From Acidobacteriota bacterium (lineage in GTDB: Bacteria; Acidobacteriota; UBA6911): a stretch of DNA of 64,000 nt. The notes below the pieces were generated by a model. The model saw only the letters and a program-made list of their open reading frames with translations. It did no database searches and had not been told where the DNA came from. The DNA lies in contig OY761556.1 in NCBI GenBank assembly GCA_963664705.1, positions 4,800,001 to 4,864,000 on the forward strand, written 5' to 3'. Below, one piece after another: positions 9,408 through 26,641 of this stretch; position 1 is the stretch's first letter, and the number at the start of each line of letters is the position of its first letter. Both the position numbers and the translations under genes were made by a program.

Positions 9408-9434
9408 TCTCTCTTTCTCTTCCCACGAAAACAA

Positions 9435-9486
9435 CGAAGACCGCGGAAAACACAGATATGATCTCCGTGCCTTCCGCGGTCTTCCG
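9435..9486. terminator. Stem-loop between moaD-like and radical SAM genes
   Basis: GAAGACCGCGGAA...TTCCGCGGTCTTC inverted repeat; no clear U-tract. Confidence 0.4.
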
Positions 9487-9498
9487 TGTTTTCAGCGG

Positions 9499-9723
9499 CT
9501 ACCCACCCTCTAAAAAGGGATAGAGCTTGATGGAGTCGCCGTCTTTAATGACGCTGTTCAGCGGAGCCCATGCATCATTGATGAGCAGCATGCCGACATC
9601 GTCATCGGTAAGCCCGAGTCTGGCTTCAAGCTGCGCCAGGCTGAGAGACTCACCGATATCCAGCGTGTCATGCCTTTTGCCCATCCGCTCTACCAGATTC
9701 AACCCGAACTCAATTTCAATCAT
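9499..9723 (-). CDS. MoaD/ThiS family sulfur carrier protein
   Basis: 74 aa, ubiquitin-like size, C-terminal LEGG di-glycine; adjacent to AOR. Confidence 0.9.
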   Translation of the reverse strand: MIEIEFGLNLVERMGKRHDTLDIGESLSLAQLEARLGLTDDDVGMLLINDAWAPLNSVIKDGDSIKLYPFLEGG

Positions 9724-9741
9724 ACCGTTCCCTTGGGCCTT

Positions 9742-11457
9742 TTAGCGCAGGAGGCCTTTTTGCATCTCTTCGTCGGAAAGATCGAAGACATGATTCGTAG
9801 GCGGCAGGGGAATTCTGTACATATATTCCGGCAGCTTATCCTGGGCCGGGGAAACACCGGATTTGACATTGTATTCATACTCGAGGCGCGCGGTCTGGTG
9901 GCCTTGTTCCCAGAATTCGTCCACCGTCATCTTATCGCCGCAAATACCATAGGCAAACTTGGTGAAGAGCTCCGGTTTCTTGAACAGGTACGCACGGGCA
10001 AAGATGCAGAATCCCATGTTTTCCAAGGCAGCCACCTGCAACTGCGTTTTGCGGGACAGGTCTCCCTGGCCCTCGCAGGACAGAGGAGGAACCGTGGCAC
10101 GGGCGCCGTAGCAATTACCCGTAGTATGATCGCCGCCTTGCGACGTCATCGCGAAGGTAACGCCGTTGCCCTTCAGGGCTCGCGGATCATATCCCGGAAA
10201 TGCCTGGCCCTTTGACATCGGCAGATCATTGATTCCGAAAACTTCACCGGTGGTCTTGACGCCATTGCCGATCACGCGGCCAAGCGGCGTGGCCGCCTCA
10301 ATCTCGTTGAGGAGTTTCATGAAGCTCTCTTCATTGCCGAACTCGGCTATCCCCGCTTCCGCAGCAACGCCGAGCGCGGCGCCAGTCTCGATCGCATCCA
10401 ATCCCAGGTCGTTTACCCTGTCATTCAGATGCGCAATGCTGTCCAGGGTACCCAGGCACAGATTGGAGCCCAGCAGCGACAGGTTTTCATACTGAACCGT
10501 GGAGCAGATCGATTTCCCGCCTTCGTCGGGGAAGATGGACAGGCACTTGATCATGCAGCCGTTCATACAAGCCTGACCGGTTTTGCCATCACCGCCACGA
10601 GCATTAATGAGCTCGACCAATTTTTCGCCGCCGATTTCGGCGAACTTGTCAAAAGCTCCCAGCGTGAAGTTACGGGTGGGACACAGCCCCAGCTCGTTGA
10701 CGATTTTGAACATGCCGGTCGTGCCATAGAGCTGATTCGTCTTTTTGATCGTTGGCATGGCCTCGACAAGCATCTGGTGGTATTCCTTTGCCGCCTCGGT
10801 AAAGACGGCTTTGTCGAAGTATTCCACCTTCGAAGTGCTGGCCGGAACGATCACCACCGCTTTGACCTGCTTGCTCCCCAGCACGGCACCCATGCCGCCG
10901 CGGGCCGCAAAGCGCATTTCGCCTTTGGGAGCGGCGCACACAACGCCCGCGCCTCGCATCAGATATTCGCCGGCAGGGCCGTTGCAGATAATGCCGCACT
11001 TCTCGCCAAACTTGTGCCGCAATGTCTGGATGGTATTCCGCGCGCCCATGTGGAGCAGCTCGTTCATAACCTCGAGCTTAATGCCCTCTTCCGAAACAAC
11101 GAGGACGTAGGTGTTCTTGTCATCGGCGGCAGGCAGGCGCTCGATGATGATGGCGCGGATGCCATGCCTTGCCAGGTCGTTGGCAGCGGTGCCTCCGGAG
11201 CTGGCTTCCTTGATGCCGTTGGTGAGCGGGCTCTTCCCGCCGATGGAAAGCCTGCCGGAACTGGAAACCGCGGTGCCTCCCAGCAGACCTGTGCAAATGA
11301 TGAGCTTATTCTTGATGCCAAGAGGCTCGCAGGTCGCGTCAACCTCATCGTTCATGAAACGGGCGATAAAACCTCTGGAACCGTAGCCGTTATATTTCCC
11401 GGCATCCTCCTGGGTGATCCCCTTGGTCTCCATGTTTACTCTAACAATTCTTGCCAT
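9742..11457 (-). CDS. aor: Aldehyde:ferredoxin oxidoreductase (tungstopterin AOR family)
   Basis: KSPLT.GIKEA, GPAGE, AARGGMGAV.GSK, CMNGCMIKC Fe-S cysteines, DLGLDAIETG, YDPR, GGDH. Confidence 0.92.
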   Translation of the reverse strand: MARIVRVNMETKGITQEDAGKYNGYGSRGFIARFMNDEVDATCEPLGIKNKLIICTGLLGGTAVSSSGRLSIGGKSPLTNGIKEASSGGTAANDLARHGIRAIIIERLPAADDKNTYVLVVSEEGIKLEVMNELLHMGARNTIQTLRHKFGEKCGIICNGPAGEYLMRGAGVVCAAPKGEMRFAARGGMGAVLGSKQVKAVVIVPASTSKVEYFDKAVFTEAAKEYHQMLVEAMPTIKKTNQLYGTTGMFKIVNELGLCPTRNFTLGAFDKFAEIGGEKLVELINARGGDGKTGQACMNGCMIKCLSIFPDEGGKSICSTVQYENLSLLGSNLCLGTLDSIAHLNDRVNDLGLDAIETGAALGVAAEAGIAEFGNEESFMKLLNEIEAATPLGRVIGNGVKTTGEVFGINDLPMSKGQAFPGYDPRALKGNGVTFAMTSQGGDHTTGNCYGARATVPPLSCEGQGDLSRKTQLQVAALENMGFCIFARAYLFKKPELFTKFAYGICGDKMTVDEFWEQGHQTARLEYEYNVKSGVSPAQDKLPEYMYRIPLPPTNHVFDLSDEEMQKGLLR

Positions 11458-11633
11458 ACACCTATGTCTCCTACTTTATTATTCCGGCATCCAAAGATCT
11501 ATCAGCCTGCCTACGGTGACTATGCGCAGACCAAGCAGTCAGACGATCGCCCGTCAGTACGGGTCAACCATCCACACACTTATAATCGTAATAAATAGAT
11601 TTTCAGCTGAGTTTAATTTTCGGGTGCCATCCT

Positions 11634-12356
11634 CTAAGCCATTGTTCCGCATACGGGACAGTCCGGTCTGCGACCGATCCCGAGCGGCGAAAAAGTCCAT
11701 TCAGAACCATTGAAAAGCAGCATTTTTCCTGCCGGTCCTGTTCGTCCCAGCAGATTCTCGACTACCGCCAAAGCCTCCATGGAACCGATAATACCGGCCA
11801 TGGGGCCAAGAGACACTGTTACATGCCCGCCGGTCCGTCTGTTTTCAAACCAGCACGAGAGGCAGGGCGTCTGGCGCGGGGCCACCGTCGTCACATAGCC
11901 GCTCCATCCATCGATCCCGCCATCCACGAGCGGCTTGCCCTGCGCAACACACAAGCGATTGGCCAGCAGACGCGTTTCCCGATTGTCCAGCGCCAGCGCC
12001 ACAAGATCGCTTCCGGCTACCATCGACGGGCCGTTCTGCTCCGTAAACCTCGCCGTTACAGGCGTCACCCGAACCGTGCCGTTCAGCGCCCGCAGGCACT
12101 CCGCCGCCCGTTCAGCCTTCCAGTAGCCTAAATCCGCTTCCGTATAGAGGATCTGACGATTCAGGTTGCTTTCCGATACCCTGTCATCGTCCACAACCGT
12201 GAGGTTTCCTACACCGGCCGCAACCAGATAATATAGCAGCGGAGAACCCAGACCTCCAGCGCCGAGCACGAGTACACGAGCACACGAGAGCTTCTTCTGA
12301 CCTTCTTCGCCAAACAGCGCCGCCTGCCGCGCATAGCGCTCGTTCGTCTCGCTCAT
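11634..12356 (-). CDS. HesA/MoeB/ThiF family adenylyltransferase
   Basis: RYARQ, GAGGLGS, SNLNRQ, CLSC and CPVC zinc motifs. Confidence 0.92.
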   Translation of the reverse strand: MSETNERYARQAALFGEEGQKKLSCARVLVLGAGGLGSPLLYYLVAAGVGNLTVVDDDRVSESNLNRQILYTEADLGYWKAERAAECLRALNGTVRVTPVTARFTEQNGPSMVAGSDLVALALDNRETRLLANRLCVAQGKPLVDGGIDGWSGYVTTVAPRQTPCLSCWFENRRTGGHVTVSLGPMAGIIGSMEALAVVENLLGRTGPAGKMLLFNGSEWTFSPLGIGRRPDCPVCGTMA

Positions 12357-13609: not shown

Positions 13610-14278
13610 ATGGTGAGCGGTATCGACAGCAACCTGGCATCAACAATGGCAAGCAGCCTGTTCTCCAAACTCGACACCAACAATCGAGGCTATCTTCAGA
13701 AATCCGATCTTGAATCTGCTTTCAGCTCCATCTCCAGCGATTCCGATTCAAGCAGTGCGGACGATGTTTTTGACACATTGGATATCAACAGCGATGGCAA
13801 GGTCACGCAGGACGAAATGGCCACAGCCTTGAAGAATATTCTCGGCAGCCAGCCCAATGGCGCCAGCATGCCGGAAGGAGGGCCTGGCGGACCGGGCGGC
13901 ACGCCTCCTCCACCACCACCGGAGGGATCGGACAAAGGATTTACGAAAGATGAATTGAGCACGCAGCTCGAGGAGATCGGCAGTTCCGACAGCAAGCGTT
14001 CTTCGTTGATCTCCAATATCGTGGAAAATTTCGATGAAGCGGATACGGATAAGGACGGCAAGGTGAGCATGCAGGAGGCCATGGCCTTTGATAAAGCTCA
14101 CCAGACATCATCATCCATATCCACCCAAGCCGCTTCGGATGGATCTACGTCCAGCACCGATAGCAAGAACAGCGAGGATCTTTTCATGAAGCAGATCATG
14201 AAATTACTGAGCGCCTATCAGGTAGCCCAAAGCGGGTCGAGCAGTTCTGATAGTTCCAGCCTCTCGATTTCGGCTTGA
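13610..14278 (+). CDS. EF-hand calcium-binding protein, Ser/Pro-rich
   Basis: EF loops DTNNRGYLQKSD, DINSDGKVTQDE and DTDKDGKVSMQE; GPGGTPPPPPP linker. Confidence 0.85.
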   Translation: MVSGIDSNLASTMASSLFSKLDTNNRGYLQKSDLESAFSSISSDSDSSSADDVFDTLDINSDGKVTQDEMATALKNILGSQPNGASMPEGGPGGPGGTPPPPPPEGSDKGFTKDELSTQLEEIGSSDSKRSSLISNIVENFDEADTDKDGKVSMQEAMAFDKAHQTSSSISTQAASDGSTSSTDSKNSEDLFMKQIMKLLSAYQVAQSGSSSSDSSSLSISA

Positions 14279-14516: not shown

Positions 14517-15392
14517 TCAGTATGCGGCGCTCCCGGTAGAAATGACGTCGCGCGTGTCTATCGTAAATCTCTTATAGCTCGAAAACTGGTGAACATTGCG
14601 CCAGTGCTGTCGTTCGGTAGCGATGTCCACCGTGGCTGATGACGGAAGCCATTCCGCACGCTCCTGAGCCGGGAACTTATGGGGGTCATACAGCACCTCC
14701 ATTTCCATGGATTTGAGGTTATGATCGCTGCGCGACGACTCCAGCCCGGCGATTATTCTGTGAATGGCGCCGGAATCCGGGTCAATCCAGGCGCTTCCTT
14801 TGATGTCCAGCGGATAATCTATTCCGCGCAACCGCAGCGCGGTAGTCGATTTTGTGCCGGCAATGTGCTTGAATTGAATCTTAGCCAGACGGTGACCGTC
14901 GGCTGTCTCATACCCCGCGATCTGATATTCGAAATCGCTCTGATAATAAGGATGAAATACGAGCAGGAGCGTGGGGATGCCATTGGTTATCAGCAGGGGG
15001 ATATTCTTGTCTTTATTCTTTTTCCCTTGCAGCAGCCTGGATTCCTCCACAGAGAAACCCTCATCATCCACGTTCAGCAAGACCAGGTAATCAAAAGTTG
15101 ATTTCTGGATATACTCAGGTTTCCCCTCTTTTCCCAGCTTGGCCTGGGTCACTTTCTCCACGCATGTCACGGATTTGAACTGTGTCCAGAATTCCCCGAC
15201 CGACCTTCTCGCCTGCCCGAGGATAACCTTCAGGCTTGGGCCGTCATCCGGAACGTCACTTTCCGCGGCCTTCGCTGAACTCCCGGCGATGCACAGGCAG
15301 AAACACAGAACCATTCTATGGATCCAATGGTGCATTGTCTTTGGCAGATTCATAAATGAACCTCCGGATCGGCAAAGTGTGGATCTATTCAC
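14517..15392 (-). CDS. Exported hypothetical protein, last gene of the cytochrome operon
   Basis: GTGA overlap with the upstream stop; hydrophobic signal-like segment ending SAKA; beta-rich body. Confidence 0.8.
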   Translation of the reverse strand: MNRSTLCRSGGSFMNLPKTMHHWIHRMVLCFCLCIAGSSAKAAESDVPDDGPSLKVILGQARRSVGEFWTQFKSVTCVEKVTQAKLGKEGKPEYIQKSTFDYLVLLNVDDEGFSVEESRLLQGKKNKDKNIPLLITNGIPTLLLVFHPYYQSDFEYQIAGYETADGHRLAKIQFKHIAGTKSTTALRLRGIDYPLDIKGSAWIDPDSGAIHRIIAGLESSRSDHNLKSMEMEVLYDPHKFPAQERAEWLPSSATVDIATERQHWRNVHQFSSYKRFTIDTRDVISTGSAAY

Positions 15393-17197
15393 TGAAGTCC
15401 CTTTTCACGCCGCGGCCTCCGATTGTCGAAACGGTAGCCGATAGTCAGAAAGGATTGACGGTAATTCTCGGTGTTGCCGCGGTACACGGTCATTCCTGCG
15501 CCCAGATAATAGTGCGGCCCAAACATCCAGTTCAGATTCCCGGTGACAAAGCGGGAACGGCTTTGGCTGGTGAGGTTGGAAAATACATTTTGCTCGCCGA
15601 TCTGCACATCAAACTGAAGGTTCTCGCCGAGTTCTCGCGACACCATCAACGCCTGATAAGTCCCGCGACCGAAGGAGCTGTCGAACCGGGAATATCGCAC
15701 ATCCGCGCGAATCCCTGTGTGCAGGATATCGGCAGCGGTCACTCCGACCAGGTAATCCCAGGAAGGTCTTGCATCCCCTGATCGGCTGCTGCGGCCGACC
15801 GTTGAATAGAATCCGATTTTGCGAGGCAATTCCAGGTGGAATCCACCGCTCAACCCCTGGAAAAGATATTTATCCAGGAGCCCCGTGCTCAGAAGCCGCT
15901 CATCAAAAGTCGGAATATTTCGGAAGTAGTTCTCGCTGAGATCAAAGCTCAATATCTTCCAGGGTTGCAGCCGGATCGTGAGATAGCTTCGGCTGAGTGC
16001 CAGTCCGGATTGTGCCGGGCTCTGAACGGAATCTCCGGATGCGGTATTCCCCGTCGAGGCGTAGGAATTGTTGAGCAGGTCGTACTGCACATCACTGTAT
16101 ATGGAAAGATATCGTTTATAGAAGATTCCATTTTGAAAAAAGGCAAATTGGCGATCGGGACGCCAGTTGACGCGGGTCAGCGCAACTCCTCCGGTGGTGG
16201 TAAAGCGGAATGAGTCAAAGCTGCCCGCCTCATAATTCACAAATCCGCCGCCCATCTGACGGTGAGGATCGTAATCCCACGAGGTCGGATCCGGAGCTGA
16301 TCCACCGAAAATACCGATCGTTGCCTTGCCATAGCGTCGGCCCAGGTAAAAGCCATCCATGGTGTCCAGGCTGCTGGCCCACGGGACAAACAGCCGGCCA
16401 ACGCCGGCAACCCAGCGCGAATTGGGGTTATCATAGGAAAGGCTCAGATGGTAGGTTCTATTGACCAGGTCGACAAACGTGGGAGTCTGGGAAACACCTC
16501 CCGCTGTATGCCGATATCCGCGGTAATAGCCTCTGAGATTCCAGTAGCTTCCTCCCAGCCGCGTGGCATCGAGTTGAACCGAAAGTCCGGTCAGGGTAGA
16601 GGCCGTTGACCCGGGCTGCTGCAGATAACCAAAATCAAACCCGATCCGACCGCGAGTCCGGTTCACTTCGGGAGAAGGCGGCTTCGGCAAACTTTCCCGC
16701 ACCTCCTGATCCAGTGGATCCTCCTGTGTGAAGCTGATGACCTGCGGGTATCTCCCAACATTGGTCGCGGCCGGCTTTTGCTTGAGCTTTTCGATTTCCT
16801 CGGGCGGCACGCACGCAACGTCTCCGGGATTTATATTTCCGGATCCGGAAATTATCCTGGCTACCGCGGAAGAGGCGGTAACCGATTCAATTTCGATTTG
16901 TGCGACTTCGGTATCTGATGCCCCCCTGCGCCGTATTACAAGTTTCTGGCCCTGAACCAGTCCGGCATCACTTCCGCCTTCCAGGTATACAGCCTCGGCG
17001 GATACATATTTAACTCCATATTGCGAGCCGACTTTGACGTCGGCCAAACACAGAGAGTGAATCAGTGGAAACAGCAGAATCAATGCCGTCATCGCAGTCC
17101 GGATCCGAGCGGATCGCGGCCACAGAGTGCGAAAGCGCGACCGCTGTATTCGCCTACCGGCAGGCATTGGCGATATCGTCATCAAAGGAAGAAACAT
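15389..17197 (-). CDS. Putative outer-membrane beta-barrel (porin) with an N-terminal soluble domain
   Basis: ATG overlaps the cytochrome stop (TGATG); signal-like h-region; many amphipathic aromatic-rich strands; terminal strand SFLTIGYRF followed by a short basic tail. Confidence 0.7.
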   Translation of the reverse strand: MFLPLMTISPMPAGRRIQRSRFRTLWPRSARIRTAMTALILLFPLIHSLCLADVKVGSQYGVKYVSAEAVYLEGGSDAGLVQGQKLVIRRRGASDTEVAQIEIESVTASSAVARIISGSGNINPGDVACVPPEEIEKLKQKPAATNVGRYPQVISFTQEDPLDQEVRESLPKPPSPEVNRTRGRIGFDFGYLQQPGSTASTLTGLSVQLDATRLGGSYWNLRGYYRGYRHTAGGVSQTPTFVDLVNRTYHLSLSYDNPNSRWVAGVGRLFVPWASSLDTMDGFYLGRRYGKATIGIFGGSAPDPTSWDYDPHRQMGGGFVNYEAGSFDSFRFTTTGGVALTRVNWRPDRQFAFFQNGIFYKRYLSIYSDVQYDLLNNSYASTGNTASGDSVQSPAQSGLALSRSYLTIRLQPWKILSFDLSENYFRNIPTFDERLLSTGLLDKYLFQGLSGGFHLELPRKIGFYSTVGRSSRSGDARPSWDYLVGVTAADILHTGIRADVRYSRFDSSFGRGTYQALMVSRELGENLQFDVQIGEQNVFSNLTSQSRSRFVTGNLNWMFGPHYYLGAGMTVYRGNTENYRQSFLTIGYRFDNRRPRREKGLQ

Positions 17198-20100
17198 CAA
17201 TTCCCCCCTGAGCGATGGCATTGATAGCAGTTGGCGCTGTTGTACACGTAGCCGCTCCTTCCTGCATGCTTGGAATCGGTCTGCGCTTTGGTGTGGCAAG
17301 ACGTGCAGGTGAAAACAGAATAGTTTGATGGATTTGTATGACAGTCACTGCACGTTTTGGCATTGCCGTGACTCGTTTTCCACCATGTGTGATTAAAGGT
17401 CGCTCCCGCCCACGAGGTCGTGCTGTGACAGGTGGCACAAGTGGTTGGGAAGCCGGCGGACTGATGGCCCGGATTCGTTGTCGTCTTGTACTCGGAGGAA
17501 TGGCACGCATAACAGTCGGTCGGCGTTCCGGCGTACTTGCCGCTGATATGACATTGATTGCATTGCACACTGGTATGTGCCCCGCTCAGCGGAAATGGCG
17601 TCGTGCCGTGATTAAAGGTTGCACCGGCCCAGGAAGTCGTACTGTGGCATGTGGCGCACTGCTGCGGGAACCCCGCAGACGCATGGTTCGGATTCGTCGT
17701 ACCATTGTAGTTATTCAGGTGGCACGAGACGCAGTTGGTTGCCAGCCCGGCATAGACTCCGTTCTTATGGCAGGAGGTACACGTAACACTGACGTGAGCC
17801 CCAGTCAGCGGAAACGCCGTCTTCGTATGGCTGAAAGCCGCTCCCGTGAAGCTTGTGGTGGAATGGCAGAGCGAGCAGTCCTGCGGATACCCCGACTGTG
17901 CATGATTCGGGCTCGTCGTACCGTTGTAGTTGCTCAGGTGGCACGAGGCACAGGCCGTCGGAAGCCCGGCGTAGACATTGTTTTTGTGGCAAGTGGCGCA
18001 CTGCACAGCCGTGTGGGCACCGGTGAGCGGAAATGGCGTCGTCGCATGATTGAAAGTCGCGCTGGCCCACGATTTCGTGTCGTGGCAGCTCGAACATTGC
18101 TGCGGAAATCCCGCCTGTGAATGATTAGGATTTGCCGTCCCACTGTAATCATTCAGATGGCACGACACGCAAGCCGTCGGAAGCCCGGCGTAGACGTTGT
18201 TCTTGTGACATGTCGCGCACTGTACAGCCGTGTGGGCGCCGGTCAGCGGAAATGGCGTTGTTGCATGATTGAAAGTCGCTCCGGCCCAGGCCGCCGTATT
18301 GTGGCAGGTCGTGCACTGCTGCGGAAACCCGCCCTGCGTATGGCTGGGGCTTGTGGTGCCGTTGTAGTCATTCAGATGGCAGGATACACAGGCCGTGGCA
18401 AGGCCGGCATAAACATTGTTTTTGTGACACGTCGCGCAGGGCACGCCTGTGTGCCCACCGCTCAATGGGAAGGCTGTTGCGGCGTGGTTGAAGGTTGCAC
18501 CCGCCCAGGTGGTCGTACCGTGACAGGCTGAGCACTGCTGCGAGAACCCGGCAGATCCGTGGTTCGGATTCATCGTACCCTTGTAGTTATTCAAGTGGCA
18601 GGACACGCAGTCCGTGGCAAGGCCCGCATAGACATTATTTTTATGGCATGTGGCGCATGGGACATTCGTATGCGCGCCGGTCAATGGGAACTTCGTCTGC
18701 GTGTTGTGATTGATCGAAACACCGCCCTGCCAGGAGGAGGTGCTGTGGCACTGACTGCAGTTCTGTGGATAGCCGGCAGCCGCATGGTTCGGATTCGTCG
18801 TACCCTTGTAGTTATTCAGGTGGCAGGACGCACAGTCGGTGGCAAGGCCTGCATAAACATTGTTTTTGTGGCACGTGGCGCACTGCACGCCTGTGTGCGC
18901 GCCGGTCAACGGAAACTTCGTCTGCGTACTGTGATTGATCGAAACGCCGCCCTGCCAGGAAGAGGTGCCGTGGCACTGGCTGCAATTCTGCGGGAACCCG
19001 GCCGCGGCATGATTCGGATTACTTGTACTCTTGTAGTTATTCAGGTGACACGATGCGCAGTCCATGGCAAGGCCCGCATAGACATTGTTTTGGTGGCACG
19101 CGGTGCATTGCGTATTTGCATGAGCGCCGCTTAGCGGGAATGCCGTTGTGCTGTGGCTGAAAGCCGCGCCCGCCCAGGACGTTGCACTATGGCAGCTGGT
19201 GCACTGCTGTGGAAAGCCGGCTGCTGCATGGTTCGGCTTTGCCGCACTCTTATAATCCGCCAGATGGCAGGACACGCAGGAGGTTGACAGGCCCGCATAG
19301 GCGTTGTTTTGGTGACACGAAGCGCATTGTACGCCGACATGGGCGCCGCTCAGCGGGAACTGCGTGGAAGCGCTGTGATTGAAAACAGCGCCGGCCCAGC
19401 CCGCGGGCGTGTGGCAGCTTACACAGTTACCGGAGAACCCCGCAGCCGCATGATTCGGGTTGTTCGTCGCTGAGTAATCCTTGGCATGGCAACTGATGCA
19501 GTCCGGCGAGGTGCCTGAAAACTTGCGGTTCGCGTGACAGGAGGTGCATTCGAGCTGGCCATGCCCGCCCGTCAGGACGAAGCCGGCGTAGCGGCCATGG
19601 TCGAACTTGTTACCCATCCAGCTGTCCATGCCGGCATGACACGACAGGCAGTCGGAGGGGAATTGGGCCGCGACATGATCCGGGGACTTCGCTGCTTTAA
19701 AATCGCCCGTGTGGCAGGACGCACAATCGGTGCTCAATCCCTTGAATTGCCCGACGGCGGCGCTTTTGTGACACGATATACAATCCGATGCAGCATGGGC
19801 ACCCATGAGCGGAAAACGATTCGTATGGTTTTTTGCGCTTGTCAGCGTCACACGCCAACCTCGGACGGAGTGACACTGCTCGCAATTGCTCCCCATCTGG
19901 CGGCGGTGAAAATCGGCGTGGCAATCCGCGCACTGCCGGCCCACATTGCTGAACACAAGCTTGGAGTGACACTGTCTGCAGCCTACACCGGTGTGCATCC
20001 CGCGCAATGGATAAGGTGTTTCCGAATGTTTGAAGTCGGGGAAAGGCCTGATCGGCTTGTAGCTCGTAGAGGCATGGCAGTTCGCGCATGGAATTGTAAT

Positions 20101-20448
20101 CGCCCCGTGCGGGCTGCCTTTCATGCCGGCTTTCGCATCCGCCTTCGCGGATGCAGCGCCGCCGGACTGGTGCATGGAGTGACATCCGGCGCAGGCACCG
20201 TTTTCAACGTTTCCCCCCAACGAAGGGTGCTTCCCGCTCTTCTGATCTTCCCGGATGCCGTCATGACAGCCGAGACACCGGAATTCAGGCTTCCCTTTTG
20301 AAAGATCGTGACAATCCGCGCAATGCTCCGAACCGCCAAGCATTTCGTGCCTGGCGGCAAGAGCGCCGGCAGATGTCTGCGCCGCATACCCCGTCGCGGC
20401 GCAAAACAGTACCCACACCAAGCCGAACTTTTTCACTGACAGTCGCAT
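17197..20448 (-). CDS. Giant multiheme cytochrome c, 43 CxxCH motifs, 12 tandem tri-heme modules
   Basis: Sec-type signal peptide; 43 CxxCH counted by hand; repeat FPL.GAH...CxxCH-x11-CxxCH-x20-CxxCH...W....FNH of mostly 73-75 aa. Confidence 0.95.
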   Translation of the reverse strand: MRLSVKKFGLVWVLFCAATGYAAQTSAGALAARHEMLGGSEHCADCHDLSKGKPEFRCLGCHDGIREDQKSGKHPSLGGNVENGACAGCHSMHQSGGAASAKADAKAGMKGSPHGAITIPCANCHASTSYKPIRPFPDFKHSETPYPLRGMHTGVGCRQCHSKLVFSNVGRQCADCHADFHRRQMGSNCEQCHSVRGWRVTLTSAKNHTNRFPLMGAHAASDCISCHKSAAVGQFKGLSTDCASCHTGDFKAAKSPDHVAAQFPSDCLSCHAGMDSWMGNKFDHGRYAGFVLTGGHGQLECTSCHANRKFSGTSPDCISCHAKDYSATNNPNHAAAGFSGNCVSCHTPAGWAGAVFNHSASTQFPLSGAHVGVQCASCHQNNAYAGLSTSCVSCHLADYKSAAKPNHAAAGFPQQCTSCHSATSWAGAAFSHSTTAFPLSGAHANTQCTACHQNNVYAGLAMDCASCHLNNYKSTSNPNHAAAGFPQNCSQCHGTSSWQGGVSINHSTQTKFPLTGAHTGVQCATCHKNNVYAGLATDCASCHLNNYKGTTNPNHAAAGYPQNCSQCHSTSSWQGGVSINHNTQTKFPLTGAHTNVPCATCHKNNVYAGLATDCVSCHLNNYKGTMNPNHGSAGFSQQCSACHGTTTWAGATFNHAATAFPLSGGHTGVPCATCHKNNVYAGLATACVSCHLNDYNGTTSPSHTQGGFPQQCTTCHNTAAWAGATFNHATTPFPLTGAHTAVQCATCHKNNVYAGLPTACVSCHLNDYSGTANPNHSQAGFPQQCSSCHDTKSWASATFNHATTPFPLTGAHTAVQCATCHKNNVYAGLPTACASCHLSNYNGTTSPNHAQSGYPQDCSLCHSTTSFTGAAFSHTKTAFPLTGAHVSVTCTSCHKNGVYAGLATNCVSCHLNNYNGTTNPNHASAGFPQQCATCHSTTSWAGATFNHGTTPFPLSGAHTSVQCNQCHISGKYAGTPTDCYACHSSEYKTTTNPGHQSAGFPTTCATCHSTTSWAGATFNHTWWKTSHGNAKTCSDCHTNPSNYSVFTCTSCHTKAQTDSKHAGRSGYVYNSANCYQCHRSGGN

Positions 20449-20456
20449 CCGATATC

Positions 20457-21041
20457 CTATCGAGTGGTCACAAGAAGGCTCATCATCTGCCGGGCCTTTT
20501 GTGCGCTTTCTGAATTCGAGTGCTGGGCTGTCAGGCGCGTCCAGTAGTCTCTCGCGCGATTCCCGTCACCGATATTGGCGTAAATGGCGCCAAGGTTATA
20601 GAGAGCATCCTCATAGGCGGGCTGCGTCTTTAGTATTCCTTCCGTATGCCGGATCGCCCCGTGGATGTCTCCGAGCTGAAACAGCACTTTCCCAAGTTCA
20701 AGATTTGCCTCCGGATTCTCCGGCTCCATGTCGAGGATCCTGCGCAAATCCGCCGCCGCTTCCTGGGCATGTCCGCTTTCCGATTCAATTTTAGCGAGCC
20801 TGAGAAGCACCGGTAAATGCCCCGGCCTCTTCTTCAGCGCAGTTCTGAGCATCTCCTGCTCATGCGGATTCTTCTCCCTGGATCCATCTGCAAACGCAGG
20901 CGAACCCGTGCCGGAATGTCCGGACGGTTCTTCCTTCACCGACCTCTTCGCATGTGTCGCCAGGTAGAATCCCGCCGCAATTACCGCGATTCCCAAAATC
21001 ACTATCGCTACAGCTCGTCGAAGCTTCACAAGCCTCCCCAT
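20457..21041 (-). CDS. Membrane-anchored TPR protein
   Basis: N-terminal TM AVAIVILGIAVIAAGFYLA; TPR signatures (EANLELGKVLFQLGD, DALYNLGAIYANIGD); start placed downstream of the sigma-54 promoter. Confidence 0.85.
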   Translation of the reverse strand: MGRLVKLRRAVAIVILGIAVIAAGFYLATHAKRSVKEEPSGHSGTGSPAFADGSREKNPHEQEMLRTALKKRPGHLPVLLRLAKIESESGHAQEAAADLRRILDMEPENPEANLELGKVLFQLGDIHGAIRHTEGILKTQPAYEDALYNLGAIYANIGDGNRARDYWTRLTAQHSNSESAQKARQMMSLLVTTR

Positions 21042-21117
21042 TCCGCAAAGCTGGCACTCTGCCCGCCGCATAATGCAAAAATATTTTCCCTTGGTTTCTG
21101 CGAACCGGGATTGCGGT

Positions 21118-21133
21118 TGCAATCCGCGTGCCA
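21118..21133 (-). promoter_or_regulatory. Sigma-54 (-24/-12) promoter of the TPR-cytochrome-porin operon
   Basis: Minus strand TGGCACGCGGATTGCA is an exact match to TGGCACG-N4-TTGCW, about 75 bp upstream of ATG 21041. Confidence 0.8.
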
Positions 21134-21583: not shown

Positions 21584-21600
21584 TGGCACATTTCGTGCCA
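21584..21600. promoter_or_regulatory. Palindromic site with sigma-54-like GG-N10-GC on both strands
   Basis: TGGCACATTTCGTGCCA. Confidence 0.45.
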
Positions 21601-22153: not shown

Positions 22154-22284
22154 CAGATCCAACGACAGCCACCACAGGCTGAACTCCTAACTCAAACAGA
22201 GCGAATGAAATACGCCTCAACGAGCCATTGGGACCTCTCTTTGCCTGTCAAAAGGGTCTTCCTGACATTGCAGGAGAAGCAAAA

Positions 22285-23001
22285 ATGAAAAGATATCGAC
22301 GAACTCCATTGTTGGGATTGATGTTGCTGTTGGCAATTTCTGTCCAGGCTCAGGGAAGGCGGGCGAGAGGCCCTGCCAGGCAGGCGGATAGGCCGGCCCC
22401 TGCCGACGCCGCCCAATGTCTTGCCTTGGTCCAGTCCACTCCAAAACAGGCGCTGAACTCGATGGAGGCCGCCGGCCTCCTGTACATGCGGGAGGAAGAA
22501 AAGCTTGCGCACGATGTCACCCTGAAGTTGCAGGCAAAATGGGGGTCGCGTACATTCGGAAATATTACGCAAGCCGAGAACCGGCATATCGAAATGATCA
22601 AGCTGCTGTTGGATCGCTATCAACTGCAGGACATCGCTGCCCGAAACCCGGCCGGCACATTCCGCAATGAGGGGATCGCGGATTTGTACCATTCCTTTGT
22701 AGCGGAAGGCGAGCAGTCCTTGAAGGCCGCATGGAAAGTGGCGGCCGCAATCGAAGAGCTCGATATCCGCGACCTTGAAAAAGCCGCTCAGTCCACCGAC
22801 AATAGTGATCTGAAATTCGTTTACGATCATCTCCGAACCGCTTCGGAAAACCATATGCGCGTGTTTGTACAGCAGTTGAGCAGGGCGGGAGACTCCTATA
22901 TTCCGCAGCACATGAATCAAGGAGAATTCTCCCAGATCATCGCACGCGCCCAATCAGTTGGTCGCGGCAGCAAAAGGTCTTGCCCCTGGAATCAGCCCTG
23001 A
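22285..23001 (+). CDS. Exported DUF2202 ferritin-like protein
   Basis: Signal peptide; MREEEKLAHDV, AENRH, IEELDIRDL, SENH; RBS AGGAG. Confidence 0.9.
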   Translation: MKRYRRTPLLGLMLLLAISVQAQGRRARGPARQADRPAPADAAQCLALVQSTPKQALNSMEAAGLLYMREEEKLAHDVTLKLQAKWGSRTFGNITQAENRHIEMIKLLLDRYQLQDIAARNPAGTFRNEGIADLYHSFVAEGEQSLKAAWKVAAAIEELDIRDLEKAAQSTDNSDLKFVYDHLRTASENHMRVFVQQLSRAGDSYIPQHMNQGEFSQIIARAQSVGRGSKRSCPWNQP

Positions 23002-23031
23002 TACGCTATAACCACTTTTTACGGAATCACA

Positions 23032-24297
23032 ATGGCGGTCTCCTTGTCGAACCAGACTCGATTCCACCCGGCTCGCTGGATAGCTATTGCCGTGGTTGTT
23101 CTATGCATTGCGCTCCTCGCCAGTGCAGTCTTTAATTTCGTTACGCTATCGCGTCTGAGCAAATCCTATCTCTCGAATCGCGGCCATGAGATTGCCGCTG
23201 CGCTCGAAGGAATGGCACGCGGTCCCGGCAGGCGAAATAACCCGATATTCTGGCAATCAGTGCTGGAATCAAATTACACGCGCTACTCTGGTTCGGTAGC
23301 GTTTCTGTCCCTGGTGGATCAAAAAGGGAGCGTGCTCGCTTACAAAGGAAGCACAGCGGAGGTTCCGAGCGTCATCCCAACCACGCTGCGCGACGTGTAT
23401 ATCTTCAACCAGCCCCTTGCGTTGCCTCGTTTTGAGCATCAGGGAAATGGCGTTGTCAGCAGCTGGAGCATCCGCATCGGGCTTTACACAACCGAGACAG
23501 TCTCTATTCAAAGGCAGGCTCTTCTGCAGCTGGCAATAACCGGGATGACGGTTTTCACCCTGGTTCTCTTGGCCGTAAGTCTGATCCGCACGCTGAATCG
23601 CTTCCTTGAAATGAAGGCGCGGGAAGGAGCCGAAGCACAGCTCAAATCCCTGGGCATTATGTCGGCTTCGCTGGCCCATGAAATCAGAAACCCTCTGGGC
23701 GCCATGAAAGGGCTGACGCAACTGGCGCAGGAAGATCTGCCGGAAGATCATGCGGCGCAGGAAAAGTTGAAAACAGTCGTAAATGAAGCCGAGCGACTCG
23801 AACGATTGGTCAACGATCTGCTGGATTTTGCCCGTTCTAAAGAACCGAAAATCAGCAGTTTTGATCTTGTTGAACTTCTGACCGATATCAAGGCAATCCT
23901 CGGACCAAAGCTCGCTTCTTCGAAGGTAGACCTCCGGCTGACAAACAAAGGCGTACCCATGTTGGTTCGCTCGGATCCGGCGGGGCTAAGGCAAATACTG
24001 CTGAATGTATTGATCAACGCCATCGATGCCACATCCGAATCCCAAACCGTTGAATTGAAGGCATGCCTCTCCGAAGACGGAAAGACGATCCTGATCCAGG
24101 TTGATGATTCGGGAAAAGGGCTTGGCAAGGAAAACCCCGAAGAACTGTTTCTTCCTTTCGTAACCAAAAAGGTACGTGGGACAGGGTTGGGACTCGCAAT
24201 CTCGAGACAAATCGCCGAGAGCCTCGGCGGAACATTGACACTGGAGAGTTTGCCGGGAACCGGAGCCCGCTGTTCCATCACGTTACCCATTGTCTAA
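23032..24297 (+). CDS. Membrane sensor histidine kinase (ZraS/NtrB-like)
   Basis: Two TM segments; LAHEIRNPL; N-box NVLINAIDA; GTGLGL. Confidence 0.93.
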   Translation: MAVSLSNQTRFHPARWIAIAVVVLCIALLASAVFNFVTLSRLSKSYLSNRGHEIAAALEGMARGPGRRNNPIFWQSVLESNYTRYSGSVAFLSLVDQKGSVLAYKGSTAEVPSVIPTTLRDVYIFNQPLALPRFEHQGNGVVSSWSIRIGLYTTETVSIQRQALLQLAITGMTVFTLVLLAVSLIRTLNRFLEMKAREGAEAQLKSLGIMSASLAHEIRNPLGAMKGLTQLAQEDLPEDHAAQEKLKTVVNEAERLERLVNDLLDFARSKEPKISSFDLVELLTDIKAILGPKLASSKVDLRLTNKGVPMLVRSDPAGLRQILLNVLINAIDATSESQTVELKACLSEDGKTILIQVDDSGKGLGKENPEELFLPFVTKKVRGTGLGLAISRQIAESLGGTLTLESLPGTGARCSITLPIV

Positions 24298-24310
24298 AGC
24301 AGGCGGATTC

Positions 24311-25654
24311 ATGAAACTGAAGATACTTGTTGTCGACGATGAGGCGGGCCAACGACAGTTCATCAGCGGCGCTCTGGCTAAGGAGTACGATGTCACGGCC
24401 GCATCGAACGGCGTTGAAGCCTGCCAACTGCTGTCTCACTCCAGCTTCAGCCTCGTCATCACAGATGAGCGCATGCCGGACATGGGCGGGATAGAGCTGA
24501 TTCGATGGATGCGTGAAAACGCTCCGGAAACGCCGGTTATTGTACTCACGGCCTATGGCTCCGTGGAAACAGCCGTCGAAGCAATCAAGCTGGGCGCAGA
24601 AGAATACCTCACAAAGCCACTGAAGAGTCCGGAAGAGCTTCGGCTTATAGTCGGCAAAGTTTTGCGCAGCCGGGCAATGCGCGATCGCAGCCAGCTGCAT
24701 CAGGAGGAAACGGCCGCGGCTCTCCCGGCAGATGTTGTCGCTGAAAGCGAGAGCATGAAGCATGTCTTCCGGCTGGCAACGCAGGTGGCACAGCAGCCGA
24801 CCACAGTGCTCCTGACCGGAGAATCCGGAACAGGCAAGGAAGTGGTTGCCCGATTCATACACAGCCGAAGCCCGCGTTACGATCATACGTTTGTTGCGGT
24901 CAACTGCGCCGCCATCACCGAGACCTTGCTCGAATCGGAACTGTTCGGCCACGAAAAAGGCGCTTTTACCGGGGCGACACAAAACCGGCGCGGCCGGTTT
25001 GAATTGGCAGATGGCGGCACCCTGTTTCTGGACGAAATCGCTGAAATGGGTGTGGGCCTTCAGGCCAAATTGCTGCGCGTTCTCCAGGAACAGCAGTTCG
25101 AACGTATCGGCAGCGACCGGACCATGACGGTTGACGTCCGGGTCATTGCCGCAACAAATAAAGATCTAAACCTCAGCATTGCGGATAAATCCTTTCGAGA
25201 AGACCTCTATTACCGGTTAAACGTGTTTCCAATCCATATTCCCCCGCTGCGCGAGCGGCGGGACGATATTCTGCCACTGGCCAAATCCTTTGCTCAAAAA
25301 ATCTCGAGCCGTCTTGGCAGAGCGGCAGCCCCGATCAGCGCAGAAGCGTCAGAATTGATGAAGAGCTATGACTGGCCGGGAAATGTACGGGAATTGGCAA
25401 ATGCCATTGAGCGCGCCCTGATCGTCTCACGCACCGATTCTATCGAATCCGACGACTTGCCCGTGAAACGGGAACCGGCATCAACCGCGCAATCCTCACG
25501 CCCTGGTTTACTGGCCCAGGTTGAAAGAACCTCAATCCTGGATGTACTGGCCCGGAACAAAGGAGACCGGCGCGCGACGGCGGAGGAATTGGGCATCAGT
25601 CTGCGCACACTTCAATATCGCCTGAAAGAATACGGGATTACCGGGCGCGAATAG
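24311..25654 (+). CDS. Sigma-54-dependent response regulator (NtrC family)
   Basis: REC; GESGTGKE; GAFTGA; FREDLYYRLNV; WPGNVREL; Fis-type HTH. Confidence 0.96.
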   Translation: MKLKILVVDDEAGQRQFISGALAKEYDVTAASNGVEACQLLSHSSFSLVITDERMPDMGGIELIRWMRENAPETPVIVLTAYGSVETAVEAIKLGAEEYLTKPLKSPEELRLIVGKVLRSRAMRDRSQLHQEETAAALPADVVAESESMKHVFRLATQVAQQPTTVLLTGESGTGKEVVARFIHSRSPRYDHTFVAVNCAAITETLLESELFGHEKGAFTGATQNRRGRFELADGGTLFLDEIAEMGVGLQAKLLRVLQEQQFERIGSDRTMTVDVRVIAATNKDLNLSIADKSFREDLYYRLNVFPIHIPPLRERRDDILPLAKSFAQKISSRLGRAAAPISAEASELMKSYDWPGNVRELANAIERALIVSRTDSIESDDLPVKREPASTAQSSRPGLLAQVERTSILDVLARNKGDRRATAEELGISLRTLQYRLKEYGITGRE

Positions 25655-25821: not shown

Positions 25822-26415
25822 TTATTGAATGCCAAGCAACTCCAAATGACTTTCGAAGGCATCCAGGTGCCTAATGGATCCGGCAAGCAAGTTCGTATAT
25901 ACAGCTTTGATGTCCGTATTGTCGGTTAACGCTATCGCAGCCTCCAGGTCTTTTATATCCTTCTTTTCGATGGCAACCCCCACCTGCAAAGCGTCAAAAA
26001 GCGATAATTGCCCCTGGGCAATCAGTTCGTTATATAACGCCTGCAGATCCTGATTAACAAAAACGCCGGGTTCCTTTGCCGGATCCGCCAAGCCATACCG
26101 CTCCAGGAGATTTCCAATGGCATCAAAATGTTTCTGCTCGCTTGCCGCAATGTTGGCATAAATGCGGACACCCCATTTTGCATAAAGGACCTGGTACACT
26201 TCCAGCGCAAGTTTTTCCTCTTCTCGCATAAACAAAAGCGACGCCAGTTCTTCGTTGCTCAACGATTGAGCAGTAATCGGGACCGATGCTTTCTGTCCGT
26301 TGGCGCCAGATCCGGGCCCTCCTCCCTTCTGATTGCTGTAACCATTCTGCGCCGCTGCCGGCAGGGCAGTCATAAAAGCCAGGCAAAGCACAAGCAGTAA
26401 GCTGGATAGTTTCAT
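25822..26415 (-). CDS. Exported DUF2202 ferritin-like protein (paralogue)
   Basis: Signal peptide MKLSSLLLVLCLAFMTALPAAA; MREEEKLALEV, SEQKH, IEKKDIKDL, SIRH. Confidence 0.9.
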   Translation of the reverse strand: MKLSSLLLVLCLAFMTALPAAAQNGYSNQKGGGPGSGANGQKASVPITAQSLSNEELASLLFMREEEKLALEVYQVLYAKWGVRIYANIAASEQKHFDAIGNLLERYGLADPAKEPGVFVNQDLQALYNELIAQGQLSLFDALQVGVAIEKKDIKDLEAAIALTDNTDIKAVYTNLLAGSIRHLDAFESHLELLGIQ

Positions 26416-26480
26416 GTTTATATCTTCCTTTCCGTGCTGGTCTGTTTGAATTCCGAATTTACATACACGCAACGGATCTC

Positions 26481-26496
26481 TGCAATTCTCTGCCCA
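26481..26496 (-). promoter_or_regulatory. Putative sigma-54 promoter of the DUF2202 paralogue
   Basis: Minus strand TGGGCAGAGAATTGCA (GG-N10-GC, TTGCA). Confidence 0.55.
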
Positions 26497-26641
26497 AGAA
26501 CATGGAAGGAAGTTACTCATGTTAATCCAATGGTTTGCAGCCTACTGCACCCGTAAAGAATGCGAAAAAGAGCAGAATTTGCGGCAGAGCCTGGAAATTT
26601 TTGCATCGCGGAAACTGCATCCACGGCGGCTCGAGATATGC

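What the first reader, a model, noticed from the sequence alone, without database searches (positions are those of the whole stretch)
14517..21133. Candidate giant porin-cytochrome conduit: TPR, 43-heme cytochrome, beta-barrel and exported protein under sigma-54
Seen: four co-oriented genes with tight junctions (8-nt gap, TGATG overlap, GTGA overlap) behind an exact sigma-54 consensus. The cytochrome has a Sec signal and 43 CxxCH motifs in 1083 aa, about one heme per 25 aa. Established: porin-cytochrome complexes (MtrAB, PioAB, MtoAB, Geobacter Pcc) use an adjacent barrel to sheath a cytochrome of roughly 10 hemes. Inference: this repeat does not resemble MtrA as far as I can judge. If extended, at very roughly 0.8-1 nm per heme, one chain could span tens of nm and bridge periplasm, outer membrane and exterior. 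The TPR may anchor or chaperone it, and gene 4 may be an assembly factor. I know of no characterised system with this layout.
Basis: partly seen in the sequence, partly recalled or inferred. Interest (0 to 1): 0.9.

Follow-up and report, generated by a model that had tools for sequence, protein, structure and literature searches.

The report
One-chain 43-heme PCC3-type electron conduit
Four neighbouring genes encode a protein with 43 heme-binding motifs and a predicted outer-membrane barrel that likely form an electron wire through the cell surface; the set is a fused, slimmed-down relative of the 'PCC3' system that was predicted from genomes in 2017 and is still described as untested.

Summary
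In detail: 43 CxxCH motifs in 1083 aa with 44 spare histidines, a barrel that models as 22 strands, and an exact sigma-54 site. The layout is not without precedent: barrel, cytochrome cap, and (at a second copy in this genome) the inner-membrane protein are homologous to the predicted PCC3 porin-cytochrome cluster (He et al. 2017), and this scan has found PCC3-type clusters on other DNA many times. What is distinctive here is a derived form: the first three hemes of the periplasmic cytochrome are fused to the 40-heme outer cytochrome, the ~20-heme periplasmic arm is gone, and the heme-b membrane protein is not in the operon. The fusion recurs in five other sequences, its barrels form one clade, and it is under purifying selection. 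Gene 4 has a LolA-like fold; the TPR is membrane-anchored. Best reading: one polypeptide crosses its own barrel, a short charged end in the periplasm and about 30 neutral hemes outside, fed by other quinol-oxidising cytochromes. Binding, orientation and direction are inferred, not shown. New variant of a known, untested kind; interest 0.5.

The parts
21118..21133 (-). sigma-54 -24/-12 consensus site, 89 nt upstream of the TPR start
   Evidence: exact match; 16 strict sites genome-wide vs 3.4 expected; not conserved in 13 of 15 related loci
20457..21029 (-). TPR protein, 190 aa, N-terminal hydrophobic anchor; likely maturation/assembly helper
   Evidence: Pfam TPR_19 58.7 bits; CcmH/CycH TPR 28 bits, below cut-off 42; start by comparison with L076; in 10 of 38 loci, not upstream of the fused gene in G007
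17197..20448 (-). 43-heme c-type cytochrome, 1083 aa, fusion of periplasmic-cytochrome cap and outer cytochrome
20167..20373 (-). hemes 1-3 (aa 26-94): N-terminal cap of the PCC3-type periplasmic cytochrome
   Evidence: cap HMM from 23 unfused cytochromes scores 48 bits here and 51-59 bits on the N-termini of Sideroxydans, Gallionellaceae and Leptothrix ochracea periplasmic cytochromes; pN 0.16-0.33 vs pS 0.62-0.92
19606..20115 (-). hemes 4-10 (aa 112-281): conserved, charged N-terminal region of the outer cytochrome; likely periplasmic or barrel-facing
   Evidence: about 80% identity among fused orthologues over aa 112-187; 6-9 K+R per 73 aa up to aa 316
17398..19605 (-). hemes 11-40: ten tandem 73-75-aa three-heme repeats (motif spacing 16/25/32), poor in charged residues; likely the extracellular wire
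   Evidence: units 38-79% identical; 1-3 K+R per 73 aa from aa 317; composition like PCC3 extracellular cytochromes
17200..17397 (-). hemes 41-43: conserved C-terminal end module
   Evidence: shared with unfused outer cytochromes; weak cap-HMM score 11.5 bits
15389..17197 (-). outer-membrane beta-barrel, 22 predicted strands, no TonB-type plug, with a small N-terminal FlgT/TsaP-like beta domain; start 17197 or 17092
   Evidence: AlphaFold2 pLDDT 79; best folds are 22-strand barrels, Z 16-17, rmsd about 5; N-domain Z 11.5 to the LPHT ring and E 2e-5 to TsaP; family aligns to PCC3 porins, 97.5%
14517..15353 (-). exported protein with LolA/LolB-superfamily fold, 278 aa; likely carrier or assembly helper
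   Evidence: AlphaFold2 pLDDT 87; Foldseek E 7e-7 to NE2245, VIA Z 11.3, rmsd 4.0, 185 aa; follows the barrel in 24 of 38 loci; 7 matches in own genome

Best explanation
The operon encodes a 43-heme cytochrome, made by fusing the three-heme cap of the PCC3-type periplasmic cytochrome to the outer cytochrome, which likely passes through its own predicted 22-strand barrel as a single electron wire, with a short charged end likely in the periplasm and about 30 neutral hemes likely outside the cell. Shown: the motifs, the repeat, the fusion and its recurrence, the barrel model, the homology to PCC3 parts, the absence of the heme-b membrane protein from the operon. Inferred steps: (1) the apoprotein crosses by Sec and is loaded with heme by the Ccm system encoded elsewhere, helped by the membrane-anchored TPR; (2) all hemes are bis-His, low potential; (3) the chain is held in the barrel near its conserved N-terminal region, with the LolA-fold protein assisting assembly; (4) having lost the periplasm-spanning arm, it takes electrons from diffusible periplasmic cytochromes fed by NapC/NirT-type quinol dehydrogenases (or, in this genome, by the paralogous operon's membrane module); (5) electrons go outward to humics, metal oxides or partner cells, up to roughly 30 nm from the surface.
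For: Barrel model and fold. A repeat cytochrome directly precedes the barrel in 37 of 38 loci from 34 genomes; in at least five uncut loci (G023, G016, G067, G446b, G292b) it is the only cytochrome, so the outer-type cytochrome, not the periplasmic one, is the barrel's constant neighbour. The periplasmic cytochrome has a near-fixed length (23 hemes in 16 of 22 intact copies; 24 in most proteobacterial loci) while the outer one ranges from 10 to 76 hemes, as expected if one spans a fixed gap and the other is free. The window's repeats have the composition of PCC3 extracellular cytochromes (T+S+A+G 0.42, charged 0.09, against 0.40-0.47 and 0.09-0.11) and not of the periplasmic ones (0.21-0.28, 0.30-0.35). 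The fusion is in five other distinct sequences, five fused-form barrels form one clade, SH-aLRT 100 (quick tree), and all cap Cys/His ligands are kept. The membrane protein was not found in 7 of 7 other same-genus genomes that carry the barrel (71-98% complete, with G000, G034 and G446 ringing as controls), while 5 of 5 genomes tested carry NapC/NirT-family proteins. ccmE and a ccm cluster, and four secretins, are in the genome.
Against: No structure of the cytochrome or of the complex was obtained, so threading and orientation rest on gene order and composition. By BLAST the chain is closer to the periplasmic PCC3 cytochrome (E 5e-93) than to the extracellular one (E 2e-28), and its 16/25/32 repeat is the periplasmic type (17/18/33), not the mostly one-heme repeat of Sideroxydans extracellular cytochromes. 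A 22-strand lumen is narrower than MtrB's (predicted 28 strands in PMC7096707). In S. lithotrophicus the extracellular PCC3 cytochrome was not detected by proteomics (PMC11429942). No EET activity has been shown for any PCC3 in the papers read. The direction of flow is not constrained by any test here.
Confidence: 0.62

Rival explanations
1. The chain stays in the periplasm as a long wire or electron store and touches the barrel only with one end (for example the C-terminal module), as He et al. drew for the periplasmic PCC3 cytochrome; the TPR tethers the other end to the inner membrane.
For: Sec signal, no lipobox; the repeat is of the periplasmic three-heme type and BLAST favours the periplasmic homologue; the fused cap belongs to a periplasmic protein.
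Against: About 40 nm at up to 1 nm per heme exceeds the ca. 20-nm periplasm (PMC5566968, PMC7096707 passages); free length variation 10-76 hemes and neutral composition fit an outside location; the TPR is missing from most loci and from G007's fused gene.
Confidence: 0.17
2. The barrel is an export pore rather than a conductive sleeve: the finished holo-cytochrome is passed through it and released or displayed on the surface as a filament-like conductor or redox sponge.
For: Open barrel without a plug, with a periplasmic FlgT/TsaP-like domain of the kind found beside other outer-membrane rings; usher barrels lead the Foldseek list, though with TM-scores of only 0.3; a LolA-fold partner.
Against: Usher matches reflect barrel size only; the unfused operons carry a complete inner-membrane to barrel chain (20-22 of 38 loci), which argues for a continuous circuit; a periplasmic cap fused at the N-terminus would be expected to stay inside.
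Confidence: 0.1
3. Same architecture, opposite use: the wire takes up electrons from Fe(II) minerals, reduced humics or partner cells.
For: PCC3 was found in Fe(II) oxidisers and is transcribed or partly detected as protein there.
Against: Many PCC3 hosts are not known metal oxidisers; this genome looks like an anaerobic heterotroph with aldehyde oxidoreductase, hydroxyacyl-CoA dehydratase-family genes and many multiheme cytochromes.
Confidence: 0.08
4. The locus is a decaying remnant of a full PCC3-type operon, or an assembly collapse between two repetitive genes.
For: Loss of the arm and the membrane module; G074 shows an in-frame cap-to-barrel deletion, so such collapses occur.
Against: Six distinct sequences share the junction, synonymous sites are near saturation while the cap is conserved, and an orthologous locus at 64% identity also has exactly 43 hemes (L076).
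Confidence: 0.03

Closest known systems
PCC3 porin-cytochrome cluster (He, Barco, Emerson, Roden 2017, PMC5566968; Hoover et al. 2023, PMC10734462)
   Same: Homologous barrel (profile-profile 97.5%), homologous periplasmic-cytochrome cap, order periplasmic part - outer cytochrome - barrel, 25 aa per heme, T/S/A/G-rich repeats; the paralogous operon in this genome also has the membrane protein with two WX3HX13H and SGXXG motifs.
   Different: One fused chain instead of two cytochromes; periplasmic arm lost; no inner-membrane protein in the operon; extra TPR and LolA-fold genes; outer cytochrome built from three-heme repeats; barrel about 570-600 aa rather than about 720; host is Acidobacteriota, whereas the text names Alpha-, Beta- and Gammaproteobacteria.
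MtrCAB / MtoAB / PioAB
   Same: Works-like model: cytochrome in a barrel, fed by periplasmic shuttles from a NapC/NirT-type quinol dehydrogenase (PMC7096707 passages).
   Different: No MtrB family match for the barrel; decaheme model far below cut-off; here one chain would play both MtrA and MtrC and has no lipid anchor.
Giant porin-cytochrome clusters noted in Bacteroidota and Burkholderiales metagenomes (61+20 hemes in Lentimicrobium, PMC13013709; 24+49 hemes, PMC7399161)
   Same: Two giant repeat cytochromes beside a barrel; a homologous cluster lies on an Emticicia oligotrophica plasmid.
   Different: Those keep two cytochromes; their sequences were not compared here.
EET1/EET2 clusters of peat Acidobacteriota (bioRxiv 10.64898/2026.05.27.727921)
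   Same: Porin-multiheme clusters in the same phylum, transcribed in situ.
   Different: Representative cytochromes carry 8-13 hemes; PCC3 is not mentioned in the main text; supplements closed, so identity cannot be excluded.

Membership tests
PCC3 | outer-membrane beta-barrel of the PCC3 porin family | tested here: met
   22 strands (L. cholodnii porin 22 by PRED-TMBB). Broad family alignment vs 39 proteobacterial porins: 97.5%, E 7.8e-12, 396 columns; reversed controls 0.3%; but the narrow alignment scores only 1.4% and the PCC3-porin HMM does not hit the window protein itself, so the link runs through distant members. No unrelated-barrel control was run.
PCC3 | very heme-rich, repetitive, T/S/A/G-rich extracellular cytochrome at 22-39 aa per heme | tested here: met
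   43 hemes, 25 aa per heme, T+S+A+G 0.42; repeat spacing differs from Sideroxydans extracellular cytochromes
PCC3 | separate periplasmic cytochrome of about 21-27 hemes | tested here: not met
   only its 3-heme cap, fused; met at the paralogous operon (26 hemes)
PCC3 | conserved inner-membrane protein (two WX3HX13H, SGXXG) in the cluster | tested here: not met
   absent from the window; single copy in the genome, 2.3 Mb away in the paralogous operon
PCC3 | conserved gene order periplasmic cytochrome - extracellular cytochrome - porin | tested here: met
   kept within the fusion and in the paralogue
PCC3 | direct homology to the S. lithotrophicus ES-1 proteins Slit_1446-1449 themselves | not testable with these tools
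   ES-1 sequences were not fetched; stand-ins were loci of Sideroxydans sp., Gallionellaceae and Leptothrix ochracea with the published order and 24-heme count
PCC3 | trans-envelope electron transfer | not testable with these tools
   described as untested in the passages read
MtrAB/MtoAB/PioAB | decaheme DmsE/MtrA-family cytochrome | tested here: not met
   TIGR03508 51 bits vs cut-off 192; 43 hemes
MtrAB/MtoAB/PioAB | MtrB/PioB-family barrel | tested here: inconclusive
   no Pfam or NCBIfam family at E 0.01; model has 22 strands
Geobacter Pcc (OmbB-OmaB-OmcB) | OmbB-type porin with octaheme and lipoprotein dodecaheme | tested here: inconclusive
   no family hit; heme counts and lack of a lipobox differ; no OmbB sequence compared
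c7 polymer cytochromes | tandem c7 three-heme domains | tested here: inconclusive
   Pfam c7 173 bits over 13 stretches but TIGR04257 54 bits with no stretch passing alone; the order of spare His residues differs from PpcA (recalled, not from a call)
LolA/LolB superfamily (gene 4) | open beta half-barrel with helical lid | tested here: met
   top folds all LolA-like, Z 10-11; cargo unknown
CcmI/CycH/NrfG (TPR gene) | CcmH/CycH TPR domain above the curated cut-off | tested here: not met
   28 bits vs 42; works-like reading only

The most novel reading that the evidence does not exclude
A single 110-kDa polypeptide threads itself, hemes attached, through a dedicated 22-strand barrel and stays there as a self-contained nanowire some 30-40 nm long. 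That would be a new route for exporting a holo-cytochrome (no lipoprotein anchor, no separate surface cytochrome, no polymerisation) and the simplest long-range conduit known: two proteins, with reach set by the number of three-heme repeats.
Probability: 0.3. Interest if true: 0.8.

Novelty: new variant of a known kind. Interest (0 to 1): 0.5.

Why it matters
PCC3-type clusters are widespread (10 of 400 sampled genomes of this phylum with strong matches, 14 of 50 in the family; also Bacteroidota and Proteobacteria) and, in the papers read, untested. This natural reduction says which parts are dispensable (periplasmic arm, heme-b membrane module) and points to the outer-type cytochrome as the barrel's partner, against the published drawing. 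It offers a minimal two- to four-gene construct for testing how a 40-heme protein crosses an outer membrane, whether soil and sediment Acidobacteriota respire humics or minerals at a distance, and whether wire length can be set by repeat number. A cultured relative, Ca. Koribacter versatilis Ellin345, encodes an unfused homologue of the cytochrome.

Tried and rejected
Complex prediction of barrel with the cytochrome's N-terminal 307 aa: tool not available, no verdict. Cluster look-up for names of distant barrels: not available; taxonomy taken from name columns of other calls. Solved relatives by sequence: none meaningful for the cytochrome; MtrB was not listed among fold matches, which excludes nothing. 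Cytochrome-barrel fusions: suspected among long barrel homologues, rejected; their extensions carry no CxxCH (1 motif in 269 proteins) and are AMIN-like domains on Pro/Ala linkers. Conserved sigma-54 control: rejected. Viral carriage: one pattern scan for the membrane protein found nothing. Expression: no RNA holder listed. First cytochrome alignment A5 misplaced the caps and was discarded. 'AB' labels for G000b, G296, G186 and G437 are pattern artefacts, not fusions. Direct BLAST of the cap to the Sideroxydans protein was weak (E 0.001), hence the HMM test; the 78 of 78 cap hits among proteobacterial cytochromes are partly by construction and are not used as evidence. The careful tree did not finish; the quick tree is quoted. 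Literature searches found no paper on the fused or membrane-protein-less form; He 2017 Supplementary Tables 3-4 are pictures and the 2026 preprint's supplements are closed, so either may list acidobacterial copies.
Full report
OBSERVATION. The four minus-strand genes are there. The cytochrome has 43 CxxCH motifs, 87 Cys and 87 His in 1083 aa, so every heme can have a second His ligand. After a Sec-type signal come three hemes with spacing 15/28, a low-complexity linker, a charged region (hemes 4-10), ten tandem 73-75-aa three-heme repeats with spacing 16/25/32 that are 38-79% identical and almost free of charged residues, and a three-heme end module. The sigma-54 site is exact and unlikely by chance (16 strict sites in the genome, 3.4 expected; consensus recalled) and lies 89 nt before the likely TPR start at 21029; it was not found before 13 of 15 related loci, so it is a local feature. 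An NtrC-type two-component pair lies 2 kb away. Gene 4 probably starts at ATG 15353, not at the overlapping GTG.

THE BARREL AND GENE 4. Neither has a Pfam or NCBIfam family. The barrel has 1559 homologues among 7994 candidates scored. AlphaFold2 on 93 sequences gives pLDDT 79, a small N-terminal beta domain, a flexible linker and 22 strands ending in the usual aromatic strand. Best folds are 22-strand TonB-dependent barrels (Z 16-17, rmsd about 5) but there is no plug domain; the N-domain resembles a chain of the flagellar LPHT ring (Z 11.5, 81 aa) and TsaP (E 2e-5). Gene 4 folds with pLDDT 87 into a LolA/LolB-superfamily fold (Z 11.3, rmsd 4.0, 185 aa) and belongs to a multi-copy family (7 matches in this genome). 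The TPR has an N-terminal hydrophobic anchor and a sub-cut-off CcmH/CycH score. Named homologues and Atlas taxa place the host in Acidobacteriota.

RELATIVES. The barrel was found in 14 of 50 other genomes of the family and, at E below 1e-30, in 10 of 400 of the phylum. I tabulated 38 loci from 34 genomes, chosen for strong or barrel-spanning matches (most short N-domain-only matches were left out). A repeat cytochrome lies directly before the barrel in 37; gene 4 follows in 24; an inner-membrane protein is in 22 and a 4Fe-4S/FAD oxidoreductase in 20; the TPR in 10 (several loci end at contig ends). The common form is cytochrome A (23 hemes in 16 of 22 intact copies), cytochrome B (10-76 hemes), barrel, gene 4, membrane protein, flavoprotein. 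This genome holds such a full copy 2.3 Mb away (26 + 28 hemes), and so, without gene 4, does an Emticicia plasmid.

THE WINDOW GENE IS A FUSION. An HMM of 23 cytochrome-A N-termini matches aa 26-94 (48 bits), and the rest is cytochrome B. The same junction occurs in 3 of 62 proteins, 2 of 45 metagenome loci and 2 of 5 genomes; P0270, L076 and G005 appear to be one locus, which leaves five distinct sequences besides the window. L076 has the window's exact layout with 43 hemes. Five barrels of fused loci form one clade, SH-aLRT 100, nested among unfused operons (quick tree of 31 rows; two rows tied to their cytochrome only by equal contig length). In the cap pN is 0.16-0.33 against pS 0.62-0.92 and all ligands are kept. 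Other reductions exist: 13-heme cytochrome A without membrane protein (G017, G029) and cytochrome B alone. The membrane protein was not found in 7 of 7 other same-genus genomes that carry the barrel (71-98% complete; three control genomes rang), nor the flavoprotein in 4 of 4 with one query; 5 of 5 carry NapC/NirT-family proteins.

LINK TO PCC3. He et al. 2017 (PMC5566968; I read section 15, passages and two supplement legends) describe a porin, a periplasmic and an extracellular cytochrome (medians 21 and 34 hemes, up to 85; 22-39 aa per heme; T/S/A/G-rich repeats) and a membrane protein with two WX3HX13H and one SGXXG motif. The paralogue's membrane protein has all three motifs. Seeding from a proteobacterial homologue found, I fetched the best 80 of 528 named loci, among them Sideroxydans sp., a Gallionellaceae genome and Leptothrix ochracea, with the published order and a 24-heme periplasmic cytochrome; 74 of 80 have a membrane protein hit by my acidobacterial profile, at least 44 the flavoprotein, 54 a porin. 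Identities: membrane protein 24-29%, flavoprotein 42% over 428 aa, cap 51-59 bits. Barrel families align end to end at 97.5%, E 7.8e-12, reversed controls 0.3%; the narrow alignment gives only 1.4% and the PCC3-porin HMM misses the window protein, so this link is remote and transitive. The window locus fails two defining features (separate periplasmic cytochrome, membrane protein in the cluster), so I file it as a derived variant; its paralogue meets them.

MECHANISM. Cytochrome B, not A, is the barrel's constant neighbour; A has a fixed length and B a free one; B's repeats have the neutral composition of PCC3 extracellular cytochromes. I infer that A spans the periplasm, B crosses or docks in the barrel and extends outward, and that the fusion keeps A's cap as the periplasmic contact while dropping the arm together with the membrane module it served. 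At up to 1 nm per heme (MtrA about 100 A for ten hemes, PMC5566968) the chain could reach about 40 nm, twice the ca. 20-nm periplasm (PMC7096707, passages); AlphaFold2 models of PCC3 cytochromes are reported long and mostly linear (PMC10734462, passages). Against: the repeat itself is of the periplasmic three-heme type and BLAST prefers the periplasmic homologue (E 5e-93 vs 2e-28); I have no model of the cytochrome or the complex; the ES-1 extracellular cytochrome was not detected as protein (PMC11429942, passages); PCC3 is called functionally unverified (10.1101/2025.02.27.639646, passages). Outward flow is favoured only by the genome's anaerobic-heterotroph content.

NOVELTY. Giant cytochrome-porin clusters are in print (also PMC7399161, PMC13013709, PMC6344600, PMC8258643, PMC11475568, PMC3669403: passages only), and a 2026 preprint reports other, 8-13-heme architectures in peat Acidobacteriota (parts 1-4 of 8 read). 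Eight searches found no account of the fused or membrane-protein-less form; unreadable supplements may bear on this. Earlier notes of this scan, read after my own tests, reached PCC3 for other genomes, so the system is a repeat find; the single-chain reduction and the LolA fold are what this window adds. Verdict: real, new variant of a known but untested kind, interest 0.5.

Noticed in passing
G000:C1:2500035-2509363 (L014): Full PCC3-type paralogue: 26- and 28-heme cytochromes, barrel (53% identical), LolA-fold gene, heme-b membrane protein, membrane-anchored 4Fe-4S/FAD oxidoreductase; no TPR.
   Followed up: yes
G000:C1:1653814-1672012 (L240): Second, unrelated multiheme cluster: 16-, 4-, 11-, 5-, 13-, 12-, 11-heme cytochromes (doubled-CXXCH/DmsE-like), a 617-aa family-less protein ending in Phe (possible barrel) and a 5-heme NapC/NirT-type membrane protein with similar-sized hits in four relatives; might be the preprint's EET1 type and a feeder for the conduit.
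   Followed up: partly
G034:C1:213766-219558 (L018) and L196, L136, L137: Homologous outer cytochromes with 76 hemes (1930-aa ORF) in this family and 86-92 motifs in proteobacterial loci.
   Followed up: no
G074:C40:2131-3945 (L061): Two hemes of the periplasmic-cytochrome cap are fused in frame to the barrel, both cytochromes otherwise deleted; pseudogene, assembly collapse or a minimal form.
   Followed up: no
proteins P0122-P0142: Many barrel homologues carry an AMIN-like or duplicated FlgT-like domain on a 200-400-aa Pro/Ala linker; proteobacterial PCC3 porins also have an N-terminal extension.
   Followed up: partly
window 22228-25654 (+) and 25822-26520 (-): Sensor kinase and sigma-54 activator flanked by two DUF2202 exported proteins, divergent from the conduit; candidate regulator. 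A second, two-mismatch sigma-54-like site lies at 21600 (-).
   Followed up: no
window 13610-14278 (+): Ser-rich EF-hand protein convergent on gene 4.
   Followed up: no
window 33773-36142 (+) and 45540-46991 (-): 8-heme cytochrome with HEAT and TPR repeats, and a 9-heme doubled-CXXCH cytochrome; the genome has 34 ORFs with 3 or more motifs, 324 motifs in all.
   Followed up: no
window 8286-12356 (-): ThiF-family gene, aldehyde ferredoxin oxidoreductase and radical SAM/SPASM gene in a row behind a LysR-like regulator.
   Followed up: no
L146, L157, L170, L177, L023: Heme-maturation genes (ccm, ccsA) lie directly beside several proteobacterial and the Emticicia clusters, in line with a maturation role for accessory genes.
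   Followed up: no
alignment A6 (gene 4): An invariant Cys and an invariant His in the LolA-fold protein; ligand unknown.
   Followed up: no
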